Below the pieces are notes generated by a model that saw nothing but the letters and a program-made list of their open reading frames with translations, was not told the DNA's origin and did not search any database. DNA of 64,000 nt. Origin: Escherichia phage EF202P1. The DNA lies in the sequence record OP172796.1, one strand, 5' to 3'. A program made the translations under genes and the position numbers. This document shows positions 6,169 through 40,464 of the stretch, piece after piece (the first letter of the stretch is position 1; every line of letters begins with the position of its first letter).

Positions 6169-6633
6169 TTACTTTGGGTATACACTGTCAAGATAAATGT
6201 CAGCTTCCATTCTACGTCTGTTTTTCAGGCCGTTTGAAGTGACCTTCTTACCTTTGACTGTAACCTTGTTCCACCACTGCATAGCTTCTGCACAACCTAC
6301 CTTATTACCAGCATTGTGGCGCTTGATAAATGTAGAATCCTGCATAGCTGTGATACCGATGTTGTATGTTTCACTTACAAGTGCATCGAACTCGTTCTGA
6401 GAAGTTGGAACCTTGATAGCTTTATTCACTGCTGCAACGAACTTCTCAACATCTGCAAGAAGATACTGTTCAGCTTGTTCAGCAGTAATTTTCATACCCA
6501 TCTTAACAGGTTTTCCGTCAATACGGATTGTACCATACCCGATTGTTGGGATTCCGGCAGAGTCTTCGTAAGCCTCTAACTTCAGACCTTCAAAGAACTT
6601 AATAGCTTCTAAACCTTTTCTTGAGAGTTGCAT
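6169..6633 (-). CDS. phage lysozyme / endolysin (T4 e-type, GH24-like)
   Basis: LEAYEDSAGIPTIGYGT motif typical of T4-type lysozymes; 154 aa. Confidence 0.8.
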   Translation of the reverse strand: MQLSRKGLEAIKFFEGLKLEAYEDSAGIPTIGYGTIRIDGKPVKMGMKITAEQAEQYLLADVEKFVAAVNKAIKVPTSQNEFDALVSETYNIGITAMQDSTFIKRHNAGNKVGCAEAMQWWNKVTVKGKKVTSNGLKNRRRMEADIYLDSVYPK

Positions 6634-14562: not shown

Positions 14563-15120
14563 ATGAGATATTTGAAGTATGCTTCATGGATTTTCTTAGC
14601 TTTGTTAGAGCCATTTGCAGCAATCTTAGCAGTTATCTTAGCACCTTTCGTAGTTCCATTCTACAGTGAGAAGAAAGGACATCTCCCTTTTGGATTCAGA
14701 TGGATGGAGACATATGATAACCCAATTGATGGTGATGAAGGCCACGTTAAAAGATGGGCTAAGATTAGAAAGATTGGTAAGCTTGGTGTCTATATGCAGA
14801 GAGTTGGTTGGCTCTGGAGAAACAAAGCTTATAACTTCTCTTACCATGTGTTAGGAAGAGATGTAAAAGATGTTACTAAGTGGAAAGGCAATATCAATGT
14901 AAGTTCTAACCCTGAAGATAATCAGACAGGTTATCTCCTAATGTGGAACAGTAATGCTTGGGGATTATTCGCTTTTGTACCATCAATTAAAATCTTTGGT
15001 AAACAATTCTACTGGAGAATTTATGTTGGGTGGAAACTTAAAAGTGTTGTCCCAGAAGAAAGAGCATTCTCAAGGGAAAGAGTTATGTTGGCATTCTTTA
15101 TTCATCCACTAAGAAAATAA
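14563..15120 (+). CDS. hypothetical membrane-anchored protein (185 aa) embedded in the tRNA cluster
   Basis: N-terminal hydrophobic stretch WIFLALLEPFAAILAVILAPFVVPF; Trp-rich; AGAGG RBS. Confidence 0.65.
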   Translation: MRYLKYASWIFLALLEPFAAILAVILAPFVVPFYSEKKGHLPFGFRWMETYDNPIDGDEGHVKRWAKIRKIGKLGVYMQRVGWLWRNKAYNFSYHVLGRDVKDVTKWKGNINVSSNPEDNQTGYLLMWNSNAWGLFAFVPSIKIFGKQFYWRIYVGWKLKSVVPEERAFSRERVMLAFFIHPLRK

Positions 15121-15128
15121 AGATTTAA

Positions 15129-15204
15129 AGGGGATTAGTTTACAAGGTTAAAACCTCGGTCTTTGAAATCGAAGAAGTTGGTTCAATTCCAACATCCCCC
15201 GCCA
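15129..15204 (+). tRNA. tRNA-Gln (anticodon TTG)
   Basis: Acceptor AGGGGAT/ATCCCCC, anticodon loop CTTTGAA, T-arm GTTGG-TTCAATT-CCAAC, G73, CCA. Confidence 0.6.
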
Positions 15205-15206
15205 AT

Positions 15207-15285
15207 GCTCCATTACTCCAATTGGCAGAGAGGCCAGACTTAAAATCTGTGTTATGTATCGGTTCGAATCCGATATGGAGTACCA
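15207..15285 (+). tRNA. tRNA with Leu-type anticodon (TAA) but short variable arm
   Basis: Acceptor GCTCCAT/ATGGAGT, anticodon loop CTTAAAA, T-arm ATCGG-TTCGAAT-CCGAT, A73, CCA. Confidence 0.5.
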
Positions 15286-15290
15286 AATTT

Positions 15291-15366
15291 AGCGGTATAG
15301 CATAACTGGCAATGCAGCAGTCTCTGAAGCTGTCTTATTAAGGTTCAAATCCTTATGCCGCTGCCA
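15291..15366 (+). tRNA. tRNA-Gln-like (anticodon CTG; register uncertain)
   Basis: Acceptor AGCGGTA/TGCCGCT, D-arm GCAT-AACTGGCA-ATGC, loop CTCTGAA with wobble-paired stem, T-arm TAAGG-TTCAAAT-CCTTA, G73, CCA. Confidence 0.45.
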
Positions 15367-15397
15367 CTTCTAAGGGTTCTTATGAGAGTCCTTAAAT

Positions 15398-15473
15398 GTG
15401 GCCTTATCATAAAAGGTAATGACCCATGCTGTGAACATGGTCTATACGGGTTCAAATCCCGTAGGTCACCCCA
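15398..15473 (+). tRNA. tRNA-His (anticodon GTG)
   Basis: Acceptor GTGGCCT/AGGTCAC, anticodon arm CCATG-CTGTGAA-CATGG, T-arm ACGGG-TTCAAAT-CCCGT, C73, CCA. Confidence 0.7.
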
Positions 15474-15479
15474 ATTTAT

Positions 15480-15555
15480 AGTCCAAGTAGCTTATATGGT
15501 TAAAGCGCGTGTCTGAAAAACATGAGAAGAGGGTTCAAATCCCACTGGACTACCA
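15480..15555 (+). tRNA. tRNA-Phe (anticodon GAA)
   Basis: Acceptor AGTCCAA/CTGGACT, anticodon loop CTGAAAA, T-loop TTCAAAT, A73, CCA. Confidence 0.6.
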
Positions 15556-15571
15556 ATTTCAAAGGTGCTTA

Positions 15572-16306
15572 ATGAAAGAGATGACAGAACAAGGTAAGGA
15601 GATTTTTAATCTCTTAAAAACCGGTAGAGGGTTTTCTAATCCCCTTATTACTGGTGCAGCAGTTCTAGGTGGAACCGTGGCTGCCTCTACATCACTTGTA
15701 AGCTCTATTAGCTCTGTAACAGACCCTACAATGAAGGATAAGCTCATTGCTGCTGGACTTACAACAGTTCTGCTTAATAGCTTTACAACGAGTCTGACAA
15801 GCACTACATCAACTACTAAGACATTGACAGATTATGGTCAAAAGTCTATTGATGAGTTTTCTTCACGTATGCAGGTAGCAAAAGGCTACTCCAATGTTAT
15901 GGGTGCAGCAGGAGAGCAAGTCGGTTGTACACCATTTAGTGGTATTATGGGTGTTGCTACAGAATATGGTCAAAAAGCTATTGACACAATTAACAGTGCA
16001 CTAGATGGTGTTAATGGTGTATTAAGCGACTTACAAGATGCTATTGACAAAGGTCTTGATACTATTTCTGATTTAGCTAACCAAGCTGTTAGCAAGATTA
16101 ATGAGGGTATCTCAAAGATTACAGCTTATGCAGATGAAGTTGTGCAGATGATTGAAGAAGAAGCTGCCCTTATTGCAGAGTACCTTAAAACGAATATCAA
16201 TGGGTTCTTAGCAGGTATCTTACCAGACTGGTTTGATGATGCTTGTAAAACTGGTGTGATTGACACTATTGCAACACCAGAAATGAAGAACGCATTACAG
16301 AAATAA
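15572..16306 (+). CDS. hypothetical protein (244 aa), Ser/Thr-rich N-terminal region
   Basis: ORF; start moved to ATG 15572 because the longer ORF would overlap tRNA-Phe. Confidence 0.6.
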   Translation: MKEMTEQGKEIFNLLKTGRGFSNPLITGAAVLGGTVAASTSLVSSISSVTDPTMKDKLIAAGLTTVLLNSFTTSLTSTTSTTKTLTDYGQKSIDEFSSRMQVAKGYSNVMGAAGEQVGCTPFSGIMGVATEYGQKAIDTINSALDGVNGVLSDLQDAIDKGLDTISDLANQAVSKINEGISKITAYADEVVQMIEEEAALIAEYLKTNINGFLAGILPDWFDDACKTGVIDTIATPEMKNALQK

Positions 16307-16307
16307 T

Positions 16308-16400
16308 GGAAGATTAACCCTAAAAGGTAAGGGAGCAGTTTGCTAAACTGCCAGTAGCTGAGAAATCGGTGTACCAGTTCAAGTCTGGTATCTTCCTCCA
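16308..16400 (+). tRNA. tRNA-Ser (anticodon GCT), long variable arm
   Basis: Acceptor GGAAGAT/ATCTTCC, anticodon arm GCAGT-TTGCTAA-ACTGC, long variable arm, T-arm ACCAG-TTCAAGT-CTGGT, CCA. Confidence 0.7.
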
Positions 16401-16404
16401 ATTT

Positions 16405-16480
16405 GAATCCGTGACAGAAATGGCTATGTGCCTGTCTGCAAAACAGGTTTATAAGGGTTCGAGTCCCTTCGGATTCTCCA
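16405..16480 (+). tRNA. tRNA-Cys (anticodon GCA)
   Basis: Acceptor GAATCCG/CGGATTC, anticodon arm CCTGT-CTGCAAA-ACAGG, T-loop TTCGAGT, U73, CCA. Confidence 0.7.
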
Positions 16481-16642: not shown

Positions 16643-16666
16643 GACGGTCTCTGCACCGTCTTTTTT
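16643..16666 (+). terminator. rho-independent terminator
   Basis: GACGGT-CTCTGC-ACCGTC followed by T6. Confidence 0.7.
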
Positions 16667-37434: not shown

Positions 37435-39819
37435 ATGGCAGATTACAAATTGAGTGAATTAAACTCAATCGATACAATCCGTTCAGATGACCTTCTTCAT
37501 GTCAGAGTTAAAAAGAGACCTGAAATGCTGGGTGATGAAGACCGTCGAATGACCTATCAAGATTTCTTAGCATCTTTTAAGCTTGAGAGATTTGTTCAGA
37601 TTATTGGTAGTACCATGACGGGTGATTTAGGTATTGTTAAGTTACTTTATGGTGGTAAGACAGTATTTGACCCTACAGGCTCTTCTGAGATTAATATTGG
37701 GGATGTTTTAAAGACTTTTAAAATTAACGCAAACGGTCTTAAGCTAACTATTGCAGATGCTTCAAGGTCGGCAACTGTTTACCATACCCTGAATAAGCCA
37801 AGTCCTAATGAGCTTGGGATGAGAACTAATGAAGAGAATGATGCAAGATACTCAAGATTAGCTGCAAATAACATCTTTACCTTCCAACAGGTTATTCAAG
37901 CAAATGGCGAAGCTATTAGACTAAAAAATTCTTCTGAGAACTCACCGTTGTATATTAGAGGTCAGGACAGCACTGGTGCTAATAGGTGGTATGTAGGTAA
38001 TGGTTCAGGGAATGATGATGTTATTATCCACAACTACAAGACAGGTTGTGAAGTGAATCTGTCTAGTGTTGCTGCTATCAGTAAAACACTTAGAATCACT
38101 GGTCAAGTCCAACCTTCTGACTTCTCTAACTTAGATGCTAGATACTTCACACAGACAGTTGCTAATCAGAGATTTGCACAGTTAGCTGCTAATAACAATT
38201 TCACTGGCACTAACACGTTTAGCAGAAACCTACTTATTATTAGTGACAGTGCTGCTTTAAGGTTGAAAAATACTGTAGCAAATGCTGCACTATACGTTAA
38301 AGCCGAAGCTAATGATGGTTCTGGTAAGTGGTATGTAGGAAATGGTGATAATACACCTGCTGTATTCATCAGCAACTATGTGTATGGTTCTTATCTTAGA
38401 CTTGACAATGGTCATGTCGCAGTAAACAAGGACTTCAGAATCACTGGTCAAGTTCAACCTTCAGATTGGGCTAACATCGACTCTAGATACATCCCAGCAG
38501 CAACTTTGAGTAACCTACCTAAACTTAATGTTGCTAACACATTTGTGAATGTGCAAACTATTGTATCAAATAATGAAGGCGTAGTATTAAGAAACTTAAC
38601 ACAGGGACAGCCACAATATATCCGTGGTGTTGATACCCAGAATGTATCTAGGTGGTGGGTAGGTGTGGGTGGCACAAATTCTACTGATGTAGCATTAAAC
38701 AACAGCTACTCTGGGACTCAAATTACTCTTATGTCCTCAGCGATTAAGGCTAATAAGAATCTAACCATTACTGGTCAAGTACAACCTTCTGATTGGTCTA
38801 ACTTAGATGCTAGATATTTTGTTAAAACTCAGTTATTAAATCAATCCTTAATGACTGTCTCTGTAGATAACCTTGAAAACCCTTCAGCATTTAATCTTGG
38901 ATATTCAGGTTTTGTCAGAAACAACAGTGTGACTAGTGGTCTGAAAGAGTTGGCAATTCATGTTGCTCACTCTAGTAAGTCTGCTGCACATGCAAGGGGT
39001 ATCTCTTTTGTATACGGTTCAAACGGTTTGGCAACATTCACCTATGCCTATGACAAAGACGGCAGATATGCTGGGGAAGCACAGCTTTACACAACTGATT
39101 TTAAACCAACCCCTTCAGATATTGGTGCATACACTAAAGCTGAAACTGACCAGAAGATTGCACAGGCAGTAAGTGACTCTACAGACCTTAACAAAATCTA
39201 TCCAGTTGGTATTGTAACGTGGTTTAACAGTAATGTTGACCCTAATACAGCACTTCCTGGTCTAACTTGGACGTACCTGAACAATGGTGTTGGTAGAACT
39301 ATCAGAATCGCAGCAGCAAACGGTTCAGATGTTGCTACAACTGGTGGTTCAGACTCTGTAACTTTAGCTGTTGGTAACTTACCATCACACACTCACAGTT
39401 TCTCTGCTACCACTTCATCTTTTGATTATGGTACGAAGGGCACTAATAGTACTGGTGGTCATACTCACTCTGTAAGTGGTACAACAAGTGCTGCTGGTAA
39501 CCACGCTCACCACTTAGGTTTGTTATTAGTTAATGGTGGCGATGCTTTGTACGGTTATACAACAGTTGGTAACAATAAGACAAGGACTCTTGACTGGCTT
39601 GACAGAACTGATAACAAGTTCCCTAACACTAACACAACTGGTAACCATACACACACATGGTCTGGTACTACAAGCAACACTGGTGCTCACACCCACTCTG
39701 TAGGTATCGGTGCTCACACTCATACAGTTAGTGGTAACACTGGTGGTACAGGTTCTGGTTCAGCATTTAGTGTTACTAACCAGTTCTACAAGTTAATGGC
39801 TTGGGTAAGAACTGCTTAA
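37435..39819 (+). CDS. long tail fiber protein with three internal ~110-aa repeats and His-rich tip
   Basis: Repeats containing [10 protein letters not shown](F/W)(S/A)N(L/I)D(A/S)RY; C-terminal FDYGTKGTN plus HxH motifs shared with the 36201-37388 product. Confidence 0.7.
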
Positions 39820-39898: not shown

Positions 39899-40096
39899 AT
39901 GCCTACAATCCTAGCAATTCTTCTAAAAAATCTAGGTAGCTTCTTCTGGAAACTCATTTTATCCCTTCTAAGTGAATACATGATTGAGAAAGTGTTCTTT
40001 AGGCTTGCAAGATACCTTGCGAGTAAAACAGACACACCTATTGATGATGAGTTCGTAGATAACTTAGAAAAAGCTTTTAAGGGGGAGAATAAATGA
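39899..40096 (+). CDS. small membrane protein (65 aa)
   Basis: Single hydrophobic helix (ILAILLKNLGSFFWKLILSLL). Confidence 0.45.
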   Translation: MPTILAILLKNLGSFFWKLILSLLSEYMIEKVFFRLARYLASKTDTPIDDEFVDNLEKAFKGENK

Positions 40097-40464
40097 AGTG
40101 GCTAGAGGAAGCTTTTAAAAATAATATTGGTGCAATTGTAGTTGGTATTTTTAGTGTTATTGGGATGTATACCACCATGCAAGTTTCGGATGGTAAACAA
40201 GAAGTGTCTATCACAACAAAGTTACAGCAGTTGGATAATTATTCCAAAAGTAATTATTCAGCTATCCGTGATTTACAGTCTGATATGAGGTTGCTTCAGC
40301 TAGGGATGGAGAACCAGAAAGTCCAGTTAGAGAATGTTAAGGGTGAGAACGCAAAACTTACTAAGACTCTTGATAAATTCTCTGATAGTGTGAACAATCT
40401 GGCTCAATCAGTATCAGCCCTCCAAGCTATTACTGAAAAGAACACAAAGAATACTGAAAAGTAA
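40093..40464 (+). CDS. membrane-anchored coiled-coil protein (123 aa)
   Basis: N-terminal hydrophobic helix followed by Q/L-rich helical region. Confidence 0.5.
   Translation: MKWLEEAFKNNIGAIVVGIFSVIGMYTTMQVSDGKQEVSITTKLQQLDNYSKSNYSAIRDLQSDMRLLQLGMENQKVQLENVKGENAKLTKTLDKFSDSVNNLAQSVSALQAITEKNTKNTEK

What the first reader, a model, noticed from the sequence alone, without database searches (positions are those of the whole stretch)
14563..15120. Membrane-anchored Trp-rich protein gene embedded among tRNA genes
A 185-aa ORF with an N-terminal transmembrane helix and its own RBS interrupts the tRNA array (14467-14542 upstream, 15129-15204 downstream). Protein-coding moron genes inside tRNA clusters are often superinfection-exclusion or host-takeover factors; the function here is unknown.
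Basis: inference. Interest (0 to 1): 0.4.

Follow-up and report, generated by a model that had tools for sequence, protein, structure and literature searches.

The report
Phage membrane protein inside tRNA array
A real, strongly conserved gene for a membrane-anchored, tryptophan-rich protein of unknown function (family DUF7338) sits between two tRNA genes of a Felix O1-like phage; in many other phages its relatives sit next to the cell-lysis genes, so it is probably an uncharacterised part of the lysis machinery.

Summary
The 185-aa ORF at 14563-15120 (+) has a Shine-Dalgarno site, one N-terminal transmembrane helix and 10 Trp. It lies 20 nt after tRNA-Arg and 8 nt before tRNA-Gln in a 25-tRNA array of a Felixounavirus. 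It is a full-length DUF7338 / phrog_2143 protein under strong purifying selection (dN/dS about 0.06). The family has at least 881 clusters, almost all phage-borne. A confident AlphaFold model matches no solved structure. There is no sequence or fold similarity to the T4 holin T. The "holin" label in a few GenBank records rests on topology alone.

New here: in 10 of 25 lineages the gene lies within four genes of an endolysin, and these endolysins belong to at least four or five families. It is usually the first gene of a holin/endolysin/spanin cluster. Aeromonas phage Aeh1 has no T holin and carries DUF7338 in the t slot beside lysozyme e. Elsewhere it coexists with canonical holins. In 6 of 25 lineages it lies just downstream of same-strand tRNAs.

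Best reading (about 0.4): an N-in/C-out inner-membrane lysis factor, either a non-T class-III-like holin or a holin-independent auxiliary. It is co-transcribed with the tRNAs. A superinfection-exclusion role is not excluded. Interest is moderate.

The parts
14563..15120 (+). DUF7338 / phrog_2143 gene, 185 aa plus stop codon
   Evidence: ORF. Pfam PF24027 E = 5e-62 over the full length. phrog_2143 E = 3e-81. dN/dS 0.063.
14548..14554 (+). Shine-Dalgarno sequence AAAGAGG, 8 nt upstream of the ATG
   Evidence: Read directly from the sequence.
14581..14661 (+). Codons 7-33: the single N-terminal transmembrane helix (signal anchor). It includes the conserved W9, the acidic residue at 15/16, P28 and the LAPFVVPF motif.
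   Evidence: Hydropathy. AF2 helix 2-33. Conservation. 95% of 170 family members have exactly one such segment.
14668..15117 (+). Codons 36-185: basic, Trp-rich alpha/beta domain, predicted to be periplasmic. Invariant residues are T50, D52, G57, W83, W85, R86, N87, Y90, R152, G156, W157 and K158.
   Evidence: AF2 pLDDT 90.5. Invariant columns. No PDB fold match. Topology inference.
14467..14542 (+). tRNA-Arg(acg). Its encoded CCA end lies 20 nt before the ORF start.
   Evidence: ARAGORN.
15129..15204 (+). tRNA-Gln(ttg). It starts 8 nt after the ORF stop codon.
   Evidence: ARAGORN.
11178..16480 (+). Array of 25 same-strand tRNA genes that contains the ORF. This is the likely common transcription unit.
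   Evidence: No promoter- or terminator-like site was found on the + strand between 13067 and 16610.
12550..12578 (+). Best sigma-70-like promoter match upstream of the ORF (TTGACA-17-TATAGT, 11 of 12). Candidate promoter for the tRNA and ORF transcript.
   Evidence: This is a consensus match only, and the total number of matches in the region is no more than chance.
16643..16660 (+). Terminator-like hairpin plus T-run just after the last tRNA (tRNA-Cys ends at 16480)
   Evidence: consensus match only.
6169..6633 (-). Context: the phage endolysin, about 8 kb away on the other strand. It is not adjacent to the ORF.
   Evidence: phrog_7 endolysin, E = 2e-57.
39899..40464 (+). Context: a cluster after the tail-fibre gene. 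It holds a 65-aa ORF (39899-40096; hydrophobic N-terminus, charged C-terminus), a 123-aa TM plus coiled-coil protein (40093-40464) and an embedded 48-aa ORF with an LLGC lipobox (40142-40288). These are rival holin candidates and probable spanins.
   Evidence: PHROGs gives phrog_402 and phrog_4038, both of unknown function. Some GenBank records call the 123-aa gene a holin.

Best explanation
The ORF encodes a single-pass inner-membrane protein. It has a short cytoplasmic N-terminus, one transmembrane helix, and a basic, Trp-rich alpha/beta DUF7338 domain of about 150 aa facing the periplasm.

In this Felix O1-like phage the gene has no promoter or terminator of its own. It is therefore made from the polycistronic tRNA transcript. 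The mRNA ends would be set by tRNA processing: 3' maturation of tRNA-Arg leaves a 20-nt leader carrying the Shine-Dalgarno site, and RNase P cleavage at tRNA-Gln cuts 8 nt after the stop codon.

The protein belongs to a large phage family whose members are recurrent components of lysis modules. I propose that it acts in the envelope as part of host lysis.
- Most likely it is a T4-T-unrelated, class-III-like holin in phages that lack another recognisable holin (Aeh1, perhaps Felixounavirus).
- Alternatively it is a holin-independent auxiliary that acts on a conserved membrane or periplasmic target, in phages that already have a canonical holin.

Shown here: the gene is real and under selection, its family membership, the single TM segment, a confident model with no known fold, no T homology, and the genomic linkage to lysis genes and to tRNA arrays.

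Inferred: the topology, co-transcription and processing with the tRNAs, and the lysis role itself.
For: **The gene is real.**

**Topology.**
- 95% of 170 family members have one N-terminal hydrophobic segment.
- The N-flank is more positive than the C-flank in 62% of members, against 16% the other way.
- In the two-TM variant P0175 the inter-TM loop has 15 K+R against 6 D+E. That loop should be cytoplasmic, which places the DUF7338 domain outside.

**Lysis linkage.** An endolysin lies within four genes in 10 of 25 lineages (binomial P about 8e-5 at p0 = 0.1) and within two genes in 8 of 25.
- Aeh1: tail fibre, DUF7338, lysozyme e, Rz-like protein.
- L068 group: 13 of 14 loci have DUF7338 followed directly by Phage_holin_4_1, with an endolysin further downstream.
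- L079: DUF7338, GTA_holin_3TM, GH108 endolysin.
- L057: DUF7338, lysozyme, small membrane protein, Rz.
- L081: DUF7338, small TM protein, lysozyme with a hydrophobic N-terminal (SAR-like) segment.
- L059 group: GH19-like protein, then DUF7338.
- P0021, lambdoid: holin_2, lysozyme, i-spanin, o-spanin, DUF7338, with a 0-nt gap.
- P0033: DUF7338, 96-aa protein, GH108 endolysin, then Rz.
- P0029: DUF7338, 114-aa protein, M15_4 peptidase.

**Aeh1 lacks a T holin.** tblastn best E = 3.3 and phmmer best E = 0.81 over the whole genome, and DUF7338 occupies the t slot.

**Late expression in one lineage.** A perfect T4 late promoter, TATAAATA, lies at -34 in the T4-like locus L040.

**Co-transcription.** The flanking gaps are 20 nt and 8 nt, and no promoter- or terminator-like site lies between 13067 and 16610 on the + strand.

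**The holin of Felix O1-like phages is unresolved in the literature.** See PMC3185647 and PMC6486253. PMC4392139 called this gene a class-III holin from topology.
Against: - In the window itself the gene is not next to any lysis gene. The endolysin is 8 kb away on the opposite strand.
- The window has other holin candidates next to the probable spanins, at 39899-40464.
- The tRNA array is preceded by host-type sigma-70-like promoters. If these are early promoters, the timing would be wrong for a holin.
- DUF7338 coexists with canonical holins in the same cassette (holin_4_1, GTA_holin_3TM, holin_2). It also coexists with a true T homolog in KP15 (50% identity to T4 T). It is therefore not generally the only holin.
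- The invariant polar and aromatic residues of the soluble domain look more like a ligand-binding or catalytic site than a typical holin.
- Module boundaries such as tail fibre/lysis junctions and the position after Rz1 are also classic insertion sites for accessory genes, so adjacency is not proof of function.
- Lineages are not fully independent, so the binomial P values are optimistic.
- No experiment exists for any family member.
Confidence: 0.4

Rival explanations
1. It is a superinfection-exclusion or injection-blocking envelope protein, functionally like T4 Imm/Sp or the Cor/Llp proteins. In this reading it is an inner-membrane-anchored periplasmic domain made from early in infection. 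It would alter a conserved envelope step, such as DNA passage, the action of a tail lysozyme, or a shared periplasmic component, to keep out competing phages.
For: - Patchy distribution across unrelated phage groups, and placement in hyperplastic regions such as tRNA arrays and directly after tail-fibre or tail-fibre-assembly genes, where Cor/Llp-type genes often lie.
- It coexists with complete holin/endolysin/spanin sets.
- In the window it lies downstream of strong host-type promoter matches and among tRNAs, which are early in T4 according to PMC3185647.
- The strongly conserved soluble domain suggests a conserved host target.
Against: - No similarity to any known exclusion protein (Pfam, PHROGs, NCBIfam).
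- Tight, often overlapping, coupling to lysis genes in many lineages.
- In the lambdoid phage it is inside the late operon, with a 0-nt gap after the o-spanin gene. It is not an independently expressed prophage gene.
- A T4 late promoter precedes it in L040.
- It is conserved across phages that use very different receptors.
Confidence: 0.22
2. It is a holin-specific antiholin or lysis-timing regulator, analogous to T4 RI. A membrane-tethered periplasmic domain would bind the phage's holin and delay or tune triggering.
For: - RI-like architecture: an N-terminal membrane segment plus a periplasmic domain.
- Its position directly upstream of holin genes in several cassettes.
- Felix O1-like phages carry rIIA/rIIB homologs (PMC3185647).
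Against: - The co-occurring holins belong to at least four unrelated families: holin_2, holin_4_1, GTA_holin_3TM and T4 T. A domain with invariant residues is unlikely to bind them all.
- Aeh1 has DUF7338 but no recognisable holin partner.
- The TM segment is strongly hydrophobic (H19 = 2.4) and is not a releasable SAR-type segment.
Confidence: 0.08
3. It is a membrane-anchored enzyme or binding protein that remodels an envelope component, such as peptidoglycan, a lipid-linked glycan or a phospholipid. Its purpose could be unrelated to lysis timing, or it could remove an extra mechanical barrier in the way the actinophage protein LysZ does.
For: - Invariant D, N, R, K, Y and W residues, typical of sugar- or head-group-binding sites.
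- A basic, aromatic-rich domain.
- Precedent for unrecognised accessory lysis-cassette membrane proteins (LysZ, bioRxiv 10.1101/2025.06.24.661397).
- One family member, P0074, carries a C-terminal extension with a GCGP...CDKHDNCY motif. From memory this resembles phospholipase A2.
Against: - No fold or sequence match to any enzyme.
- The PLA2-like motif got no support from Pfam or PDB searches and occurs in a single representative.
- No catalytic motif was identified.
Confidence: 0.2

Closest known systems
Pfam DUF7338 (PF24027) / PHROG phrog_2143
   Same: Full-length, high-scoring member (209 bits and 273 bits). Same length and the same single-domain architecture as the rest of the family.
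   Different: Nothing differs. However, both are catalogue entries with no assigned function, so membership says nothing about mechanism.
T4 holin T (gpt; class IIIa holin, also found in T5-like phages)
   Same: - Predicted gross topology: one TM helix, N-in/C-out, with a large periplasmic domain.
- In Aeh1 it occupies the same genomic slot, between the tail-fibre genes and asiA and next to e, and that genome has no T homolog.
- Comparable level of sequence conservation across distant phages.
   Different: - No sequence similarity (BLASTP E = 1.4; no Pfam holin-T hit).
- The cytoplasmic N-terminus is only about 6 residues, against about 34 in T.
- It coexists with a true T in KP15-like phages.
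- Holin activity is untested.
T4 RI antiholin
   Same: An N-terminal membrane segment plus a periplasmic globular domain, with a link to lysis genes.
   Different: - About twice the size, with no homology.
- A strongly hydrophobic anchor rather than a SAR segment.
- It co-occurs with unrelated holin families, so a holin-specific interaction is unlikely.
LysZ of coryne- and mycobacteriophages (bioRxiv 10.1101/2025.06.24.661397)
   Same: A previously unannotated single-pass membrane protein recurrently encoded in lysis cassettes alongside a holin and an endolysin. This is the precedent for a "fifth" lysis function aimed at a conserved envelope component.
   Different: - LysZ has a TM helix plus a long alpha-helical body and a proline-rich linker, not an alpha/beta globular domain.
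- Its hosts are Actinomycetota.
- No homology.
- The TM plus coiled-coil proteins of about 100 aa that neighbour DUF7338 resemble LysZ more than DUF7338 does.
Accessory (moron-type) envelope genes at module boundaries (lambda bor, T1/phi80 cor, T5 llp, T4 imm/sp)
   Same: A small envelope-located protein with a patchy distribution. It sits after Rz1, after tail-fibre genes, or in hyperplastic regions.
   Different: - No homology, and not a lipoprotein.
- No promoter or terminator of its own here.
- Host-phage-like base composition.
- Core-like conservation within Felixounavirus.

Membership tests
Pfam DUF7338 (PF24027) | Score above the curated gathering threshold (27 bits) over the whole domain | tested here: met
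   209.1 bits, E = 5.3e-62, residues 1-184 against profile positions 1-176 of 180.
PHROG phrog_2143 | Significant full-length match to the PHROG profile | tested here: met
   272.6 bits, E = 3.2e-81, residues 1-185 against profile positions 1-183 of 186. The PHROG category is 'unknown function'.
T4 gpt holin family (class IIIa) | Sequence homology to gpt (all known class IIIa holins are close gpt homologs, PMC12894885) | tested here: not met
   BLASTP against T4 T gives a best E of 1.4. Pfam lists no family other than DUF7338 at E <= 1. The same T query finds T5-type holins at 28% identity.
T4 gpt holin family (class IIIa) | Fold of the periplasmic domain resembles the solved T periplasmic domain | tested here: not met
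T4 gpt holin family (class IIIa) | Single TM helix, N-in/C-out, with a large periplasmic domain | tested here: met
   By prediction only. There is one hydrophobic segment, positive-inside statistics favour N-in, and the basic inter-TM loop of the two-TM variant P0175 agrees. No experimental topology exists.
Holins (functional class) | Timed, PMF-sensitive lethal permeabilisation of the inner membrane that releases the endolysin | not testable with these tools
   Needs complementation of a lambda S-null lysogen and triggering by an energy poison.
Holins (functional class) | Encoded next to the endolysin or spanin genes | tested here: inconclusive
   Not met in the window, where the endolysin at 6169-6633 (-) is 8 kb away. 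Met in 10 of 25 lineages of the family. In several of those lineages another canonical holin is also present.
RI-type antiholin | Specific partnership with one cognate holin family | tested here: not met
   It co-occurs with holin_2, holin_4_1, GTA_holin_3TM and T4 T, and in Aeh1 with no recognisable holin.
Moron (independent accessory transcription unit) | Own promoter and terminator, often with atypical base composition | tested here: not met
   The gaps are 20 nt after tRNA-Arg and 8 nt before tRNA-Gln, with no promoter- or terminator-like site there. G+C is 36.9% and GC3 32.8%, against 39.4% and 32.5% for the late genes.
Moron (independent accessory transcription unit) | Patchy presence among otherwise related genomes | tested here: inconclusive
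   The family is patchy across phage groups: present in KP15, RB43 and Aeh1, and in lambdoid, Mu-like and jumbo phages. Within Felixounavirus it is present in more than 200 records at 93% identity or higher.
Known anti-phage defence or exclusion proteins | Match to a curated defence or exclusion model | tested here: not met
   No PADLOC hit and no NCBIfam hit at E <= 0.1 for four family members.

The most novel reading that the evidence does not exclude
DUF7338 founds a large family (at least 881 clusters) of phage lysis effectors with a previously unseen fold. It would be a second, T-unrelated lineage of class-III (N-in/C-out, large periplasmic domain) holins, or a holin-independent membrane-permeabilising or barrier-removing factor. 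It would be the missing holin of Felix O1-like phages and of Aeh1. In Felixounavirus its mRNA would be carved out of a tRNA precursor by RNase P and tRNA 3' processing, a bacterial-virus version of the 'tRNA punctuation' seen in mitochondria.
Probability: 0.2. Interest if true: 0.65.

Novelty: new variant of a known kind. Interest (0 to 1): 0.4.

Why it matters
- The holin of Felix O1-like phages has been unresolved since the 2010 genome paper, and these phages are widely used for Salmonella and E. coli typing, biocontrol and therapy.
- GenBank records currently give the "holin" label to two different genes.
- According to the 2026 phiKZ lysis paper, every known class-III holin with a periplasmic domain is a T4 gpt homolog. 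A second, structurally unrelated family present in hundreds of phage lineages would therefore widen the known repertoire of lysis proteins.
- If the protein is instead an auxiliary acting on a conserved envelope target, it could reveal a further barrier to lysis in Gram-negative cells, as LysZ did for corynebacteria.
- The test is cheap: complementation of a lambda holin mutant plus a phage deletion.
- The recurrent embedding in tRNA arrays also offers a simple system for studying how an mRNA is expressed from a tRNA precursor.

Tried and rejected
1. **Homology to T4 T.** Rejected: BLASTP E = 1.4, no Pfam hit, no PDB fold match.
3. **Defence or naming libraries.** No hit in PADLOC or NCBIfam.
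4. **A structured RNA element (tRNA or GC hairpin plus U-run) always directly upstream of DUF7338 genes.** It is visible in many T4-like loci. It is not significantly stronger than for other genes preceded by intergenic DNA (Mann-Whitney p = 0.06), so I do not claim it.
5. **T4 late promoters upstream in T4-like loci.** A perfect TATAAATA was found only in L040, with partial matches elsewhere. This is too weak to generalise.
6. **Fused domains that might reveal the compartment or the target.** Ten long family members show only DUF7338 in Pfam. The PLA2-like motif in P0074 is unsupported. P0030 has a Gp53-like_C tail-fibre domain after a truncated DUF7338. I could not tell whether this is a real fusion or an assembly or gene-calling artefact.
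7. **Literature.** No paper mentions DUF7338. I found no transcriptome of a Felix O1-like phage.
8. **Bacterial genomes.** Only 6 loci were found. One looks like a contaminating phage genome, and I did not characterise the genomic setting of most of the others.

Full report
**1. What is there**

The window is a Felix O1-like myovirus (Felixounavirus). The ORF product is 100% identical to that of Escherichia phage vB_EcoM_I14.1 and 96-99% identical to those of wV8, FO1a, Mushroom and about 200 other records. The surrounding order is RNA-binding protein, tRNA array, terminase, portal, which is the Felix O1 arrangement.

- The ORF runs from 14563 to 15120 on the + strand and encodes 185 aa.
- AAAGAGG lies 8 nt before the ATG.
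- ARAGORN finds 25 same-strand tRNAs between 11178 and 16480. tRNA-Arg(acg) ends 20 nt before the start codon and tRNA-Gln(ttg) begins 8 nt after the stop codon.
- The protein has one hydrophobic segment (residues about 7-33), 10 Trp, 18% aromatic residues, pI about 10 and no Cys.

**2. It is a real gene of a catalogued but uncharacterised family**

- It matches Pfam DUF7338 end to end (E = 5e-62) and phrog_2143 (E = 3e-81, "unknown function").
- Among 22 distinct Felixounavirus alleles the median dN/dS is 0.063.
- A profile search of 1.84 billion cluster representatives finds 881 members at E <= 1e-3. Nearly all are 165-200 aa single-domain proteins.
- Only six loci turned up among the representative genomes of 185,579 bacterial species.
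- No paper mentions DUF7338. NCBIfam and PADLOC have nothing.

**3. Structure and topology**

With a 29-sequence alignment AlphaFold2 gives a confident model (pLDDT 90.5, pTM 0.81). It has a 32-residue N-terminal helix, a small helical bundle (residues 43-96) and an antiparallel sheet (residues 106-184).

The invariant residues are T50, D52, G57, W83, W85, R86, N87, Y90, R152, G156, W157 and K158. The TM motif LAPFVVPF is as conserved as the soluble domain.

- Foldseek against the whole PDB gives no match below E = 1e-3.
- BFVD returns only unannotated family members.
- The fold therefore has no solved counterpart.

For topology, 95% of 170 members have exactly one hydrophobic segment. The N-flank is more positive than the C-flank in 62%, against 16% the other way. 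In the two-TM variant P0175 the loop preceding the family's TM has 15 K+R against 6 D+E. This points to N-in/C-out with a periplasmic domain. It remains a prediction.

**4. The "holin" label**

A few GenBank records call this gene a holin. [quoted passage not shown]

- The Felix O1 paper listed other candidates, and a later paper from the same centre said no holin was identified (PMC3185647, PMC6486253).
- Other records give the "holin" label to a different gene, the 123-aa TM plus coiled-coil gene after the tail fibre.
- The protein is not related to the T4 holin T. BLASTP gives E = 1.4, whereas the same T query detects T5-type holins at 28% identity, and there is no fold match.
- The 2026 phiKZ lysis paper states that all known class-III holins with a periplasmic domain are gpt homologs (PMC12894885). 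Membership of that family fails here.

**5. Genomic context across the family: the main new result**

I grouped about 100 loci into 25 lineages at 70% identity.

An endolysin lies within four genes in 10 lineages and within two genes in 8. The binomial P is about 8e-5 and 2e-5 for conservative background rates. The lineages are not fully independent, so these values are optimistic.

The endolysins belong to different families: GH24, GH108, a GH19-like family, M15_4 and a phrog_873 transglycosylase-like family.

| Lineage | Gene order |
|---|---|
| Aeh1 | tail fibre, DUF7338, lysozyme e, Rz-like protein |
| L068 group | in 13 of 14 loci DUF7338 then Phage_holin_4_1, with an endolysin further downstream |
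| L079 | DUF7338, GTA_holin_3TM, GH108 |
| L057 | DUF7338, lysozyme, 84-aa membrane protein, Rz |
| L081 | tail fibre, DUF7338, TM/coiled-coil protein, lysozyme with a hydrophobic N-terminal (SAR-like) segment |
| Lambdoid phage (P0021) | holin_2, lysozyme, i-spanin, o-spanin, DUF7338, terminase |
| P0033 and P0029 | tail-fibre-type genes, DUF7338, small TM/coiled-coil protein, GH108 or M15_4 endolysin, spanins |

Genes are often separated by 0-4 nt or overlap, which suggests co-expression with the lysis genes.

**6. Holin or something else?**

For a holin role:
- Aeh1 has no T homolog anywhere in its 233 kb (tblastn E = 3.3, phmmer E = 0.81). Its single DUF7338 gene occupies the slot held by t in T4, in the canonical holin-endolysin-spanin order.
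- In L057 it also takes the holin position.

Against a general holin role:
- Canonical holins sit in the same cassette in several lineages.
- KP15 has both a true T (50% identity to T4 T, E = 3e-70) and DUF7338.

That diversity of co-occurring holins also argues against a holin-specific antiholin.

The invariant polar and aromatic residues suggest binding of a conserved host ligand. The recently described LysZ shows that lysis cassettes can hold unrecognised accessory membrane proteins that remove an additional envelope barrier (bioRxiv 10.1101/2025.06.24.661397).

I therefore commit to [quoted passage not shown] at about 0.4. Superinfection exclusion stands at about 0.2, an unrelated envelope-remodelling function at about 0.2, and an antiholin at about 0.1.

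**7. The tRNA linkage**

Same-strand tRNAs lie 17-30 nt upstream in:
- Felixounavirus (window, L008);
- a Felix O1-like relative with 88% protein identity (L029);
- Pseudomonas Otagovirus M5.1 (L006);
- an unclassified metagenomic group (L063, L067).

They lie 200-1,200 nt upstream in a more divergent Felix O1-like relative (L030, about 350 nt) and in KP15/RB43-like, L040/L055, S13 and L077 loci.

This amounts to 6 of 25 lineages (P about 1e-3 at a generous 5% background). Shared ancestry among T4-like phages reduces the number of independent events to roughly four.

In L055 the gene lies between the tRNAs and the lysozyme gene e. The tRNA linkage and the lysis linkage may therefore be one and the same in T4-like phages.

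In the window the best promoter matches precede tRNA blocks (11122-11151; 12550-12578, 11 of 12). A terminator-like hairpin follows the last tRNA (16643-16660), and nothing lies in between. The ORF must then be co-transcribed with the tRNAs, and its mRNA ends would be defined by tRNA processing. This is an inference. I found no transcriptome for this phage group.

**8. The window's other lysis genes**

- The endolysin is at 6169-6633 on the minus strand (phrog_7).
- After the tail-fibre gene (37435-39819) come three ORFs:
  - a 65-aa ORF with a hydrophobic N-terminus and a charged C-terminus (39899-40096);
  - a 123-aa TM plus coiled-coil protein that the 65-aa ORF overlaps by 4 nt (40093-40464);
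  - an embedded 48-aa ORF with an LLGC lipobox (40142-40288).
- This looks like a holin-like gene plus an i-spanin with an embedded o-spanin. It provides rival holin candidates for this phage.

**9. Verdict**

The finding is real and more interesting than a random hypothetical ORF, but the sequence and the family are already catalogued.

New here:
- it is not a T-type holin;
- it has no known fold;
- it is a recurrent lysis-module component across unrelated phages;
- it recurrently sits in or beside tRNA arrays.

Its function remains untested.

Noticed in passing
window 14543-14562, compared with L001 5744-6000 and other Felixounavirus loci: Presence/absence polymorphism. About half of the Felix O1-like genomes carry an extra stretch of about 237 bp encoding a soluble 80-aa ORF (phrog_14202, unknown function). 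It lies between tRNA-Arg and the DUF7338 gene and overlaps the DUF7338 start (ATGA). The window has the short form, with a 19-20 nt gap.
   Followed up: partly
window 15572-16306 (+): A second protein gene is embedded in the tRNA array, between tRNA-Phe and tRNA-Ser. It is about 244 aa, rich in Ser and Thr, and belongs to phrog_2114 (unknown function), with a weaker match to a PHROG labelled 'GTP-binding domain'.
   Followed up: no
window 12828-13226 (+): An HNH homing endonuclease gene lies inside the tRNA array (phrog_2255). Pseudomonas phage M5.1 also has an HNH gene in its array. Such elements may explain why tRNA arrays collect accessory genes.
   Followed up: no
window 39899-40464 (+): A compact cluster lies after the tail-fibre gene: a 65-aa holin-like ORF (phrog_402), a 123-aa TM plus coiled-coil protein (phrog_4038), and an embedded 48-aa ORF with an LLGC lipobox. 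GenBank records disagree on the holin: some label the 123-aa gene 'holin', others label the DUF7338 gene.
   Followed up: partly
L003 6018-6323 (Aeh1p340); L100 4398-4742; L098 2877-3167; L081 6583-6852: A protein of about 90-115 aa with an N-terminal TM segment and a coiled coil recurs next to DUF7338 in several lineages. Aeh1p340 matches an Rz-like spanin PHROG. The architecture also recalls LysZ. It may be a functional partner.
   Followed up: partly
P0074, residues about 185-288: One family member has a C-terminal extension with the motifs GCGP and CDKHDNCY, followed by a second TM segment. From memory this resembles the phospholipase A2 Ca-loop and HD catalytic motif. Pfam and PDB sequence searches gave no support.
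   Followed up: partly
L086 (NZ_JBHSCL010000010.1, 'Flagellimonas marina', 178,077 bp): This contig's length and its DUF7338 identity (58%, as in KP15-like phages) look like a complete Slopekvirus-type phage genome. In a flavobacterial assembly it is probably a contaminant rather than a prophage.
   Followed up: no
Public records PP892526.1 and MG065664.1: PP892526 (vB_EcoM_I14.1, 89 kb, Felix O1-like gene order) is filed under Demerecviridae/Tequintavirus in its taxonomy line. 'Campylobacter phage A132' (MG065664) encodes a 97.8% identical protein. Both look like mislabelled records.
   Followed up: no
Aeh1 genome (L101-L105): Aeh1 is annotated with rIII (in T4, the cytoplasmic antiholin that acts on T), rI.1 and rI.-1. 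It has no detectable T and no annotated rI.
   Followed up: partly
BFVD entry A0A8S5USC5: This family member (29% identity) is named 'Envelope protein'. The profile search against PDB sequences gave a chance-level match to the JEV M protein (E = 0.5). The name may stem from that kind of spurious hit.
   Followed up: no
L002, L031, L036, L040, L049, L003, L056: 10-35 nt upstream of the DUF7338 start: Many T4-like loci have a GC-rich hairpin plus U-run directly before the gene's RBS. L040 adds a perfect T4 late promoter, TATAAATA, at -34. Against background genes the structure signal is not significant (p = 0.06).
   Followed up: yes
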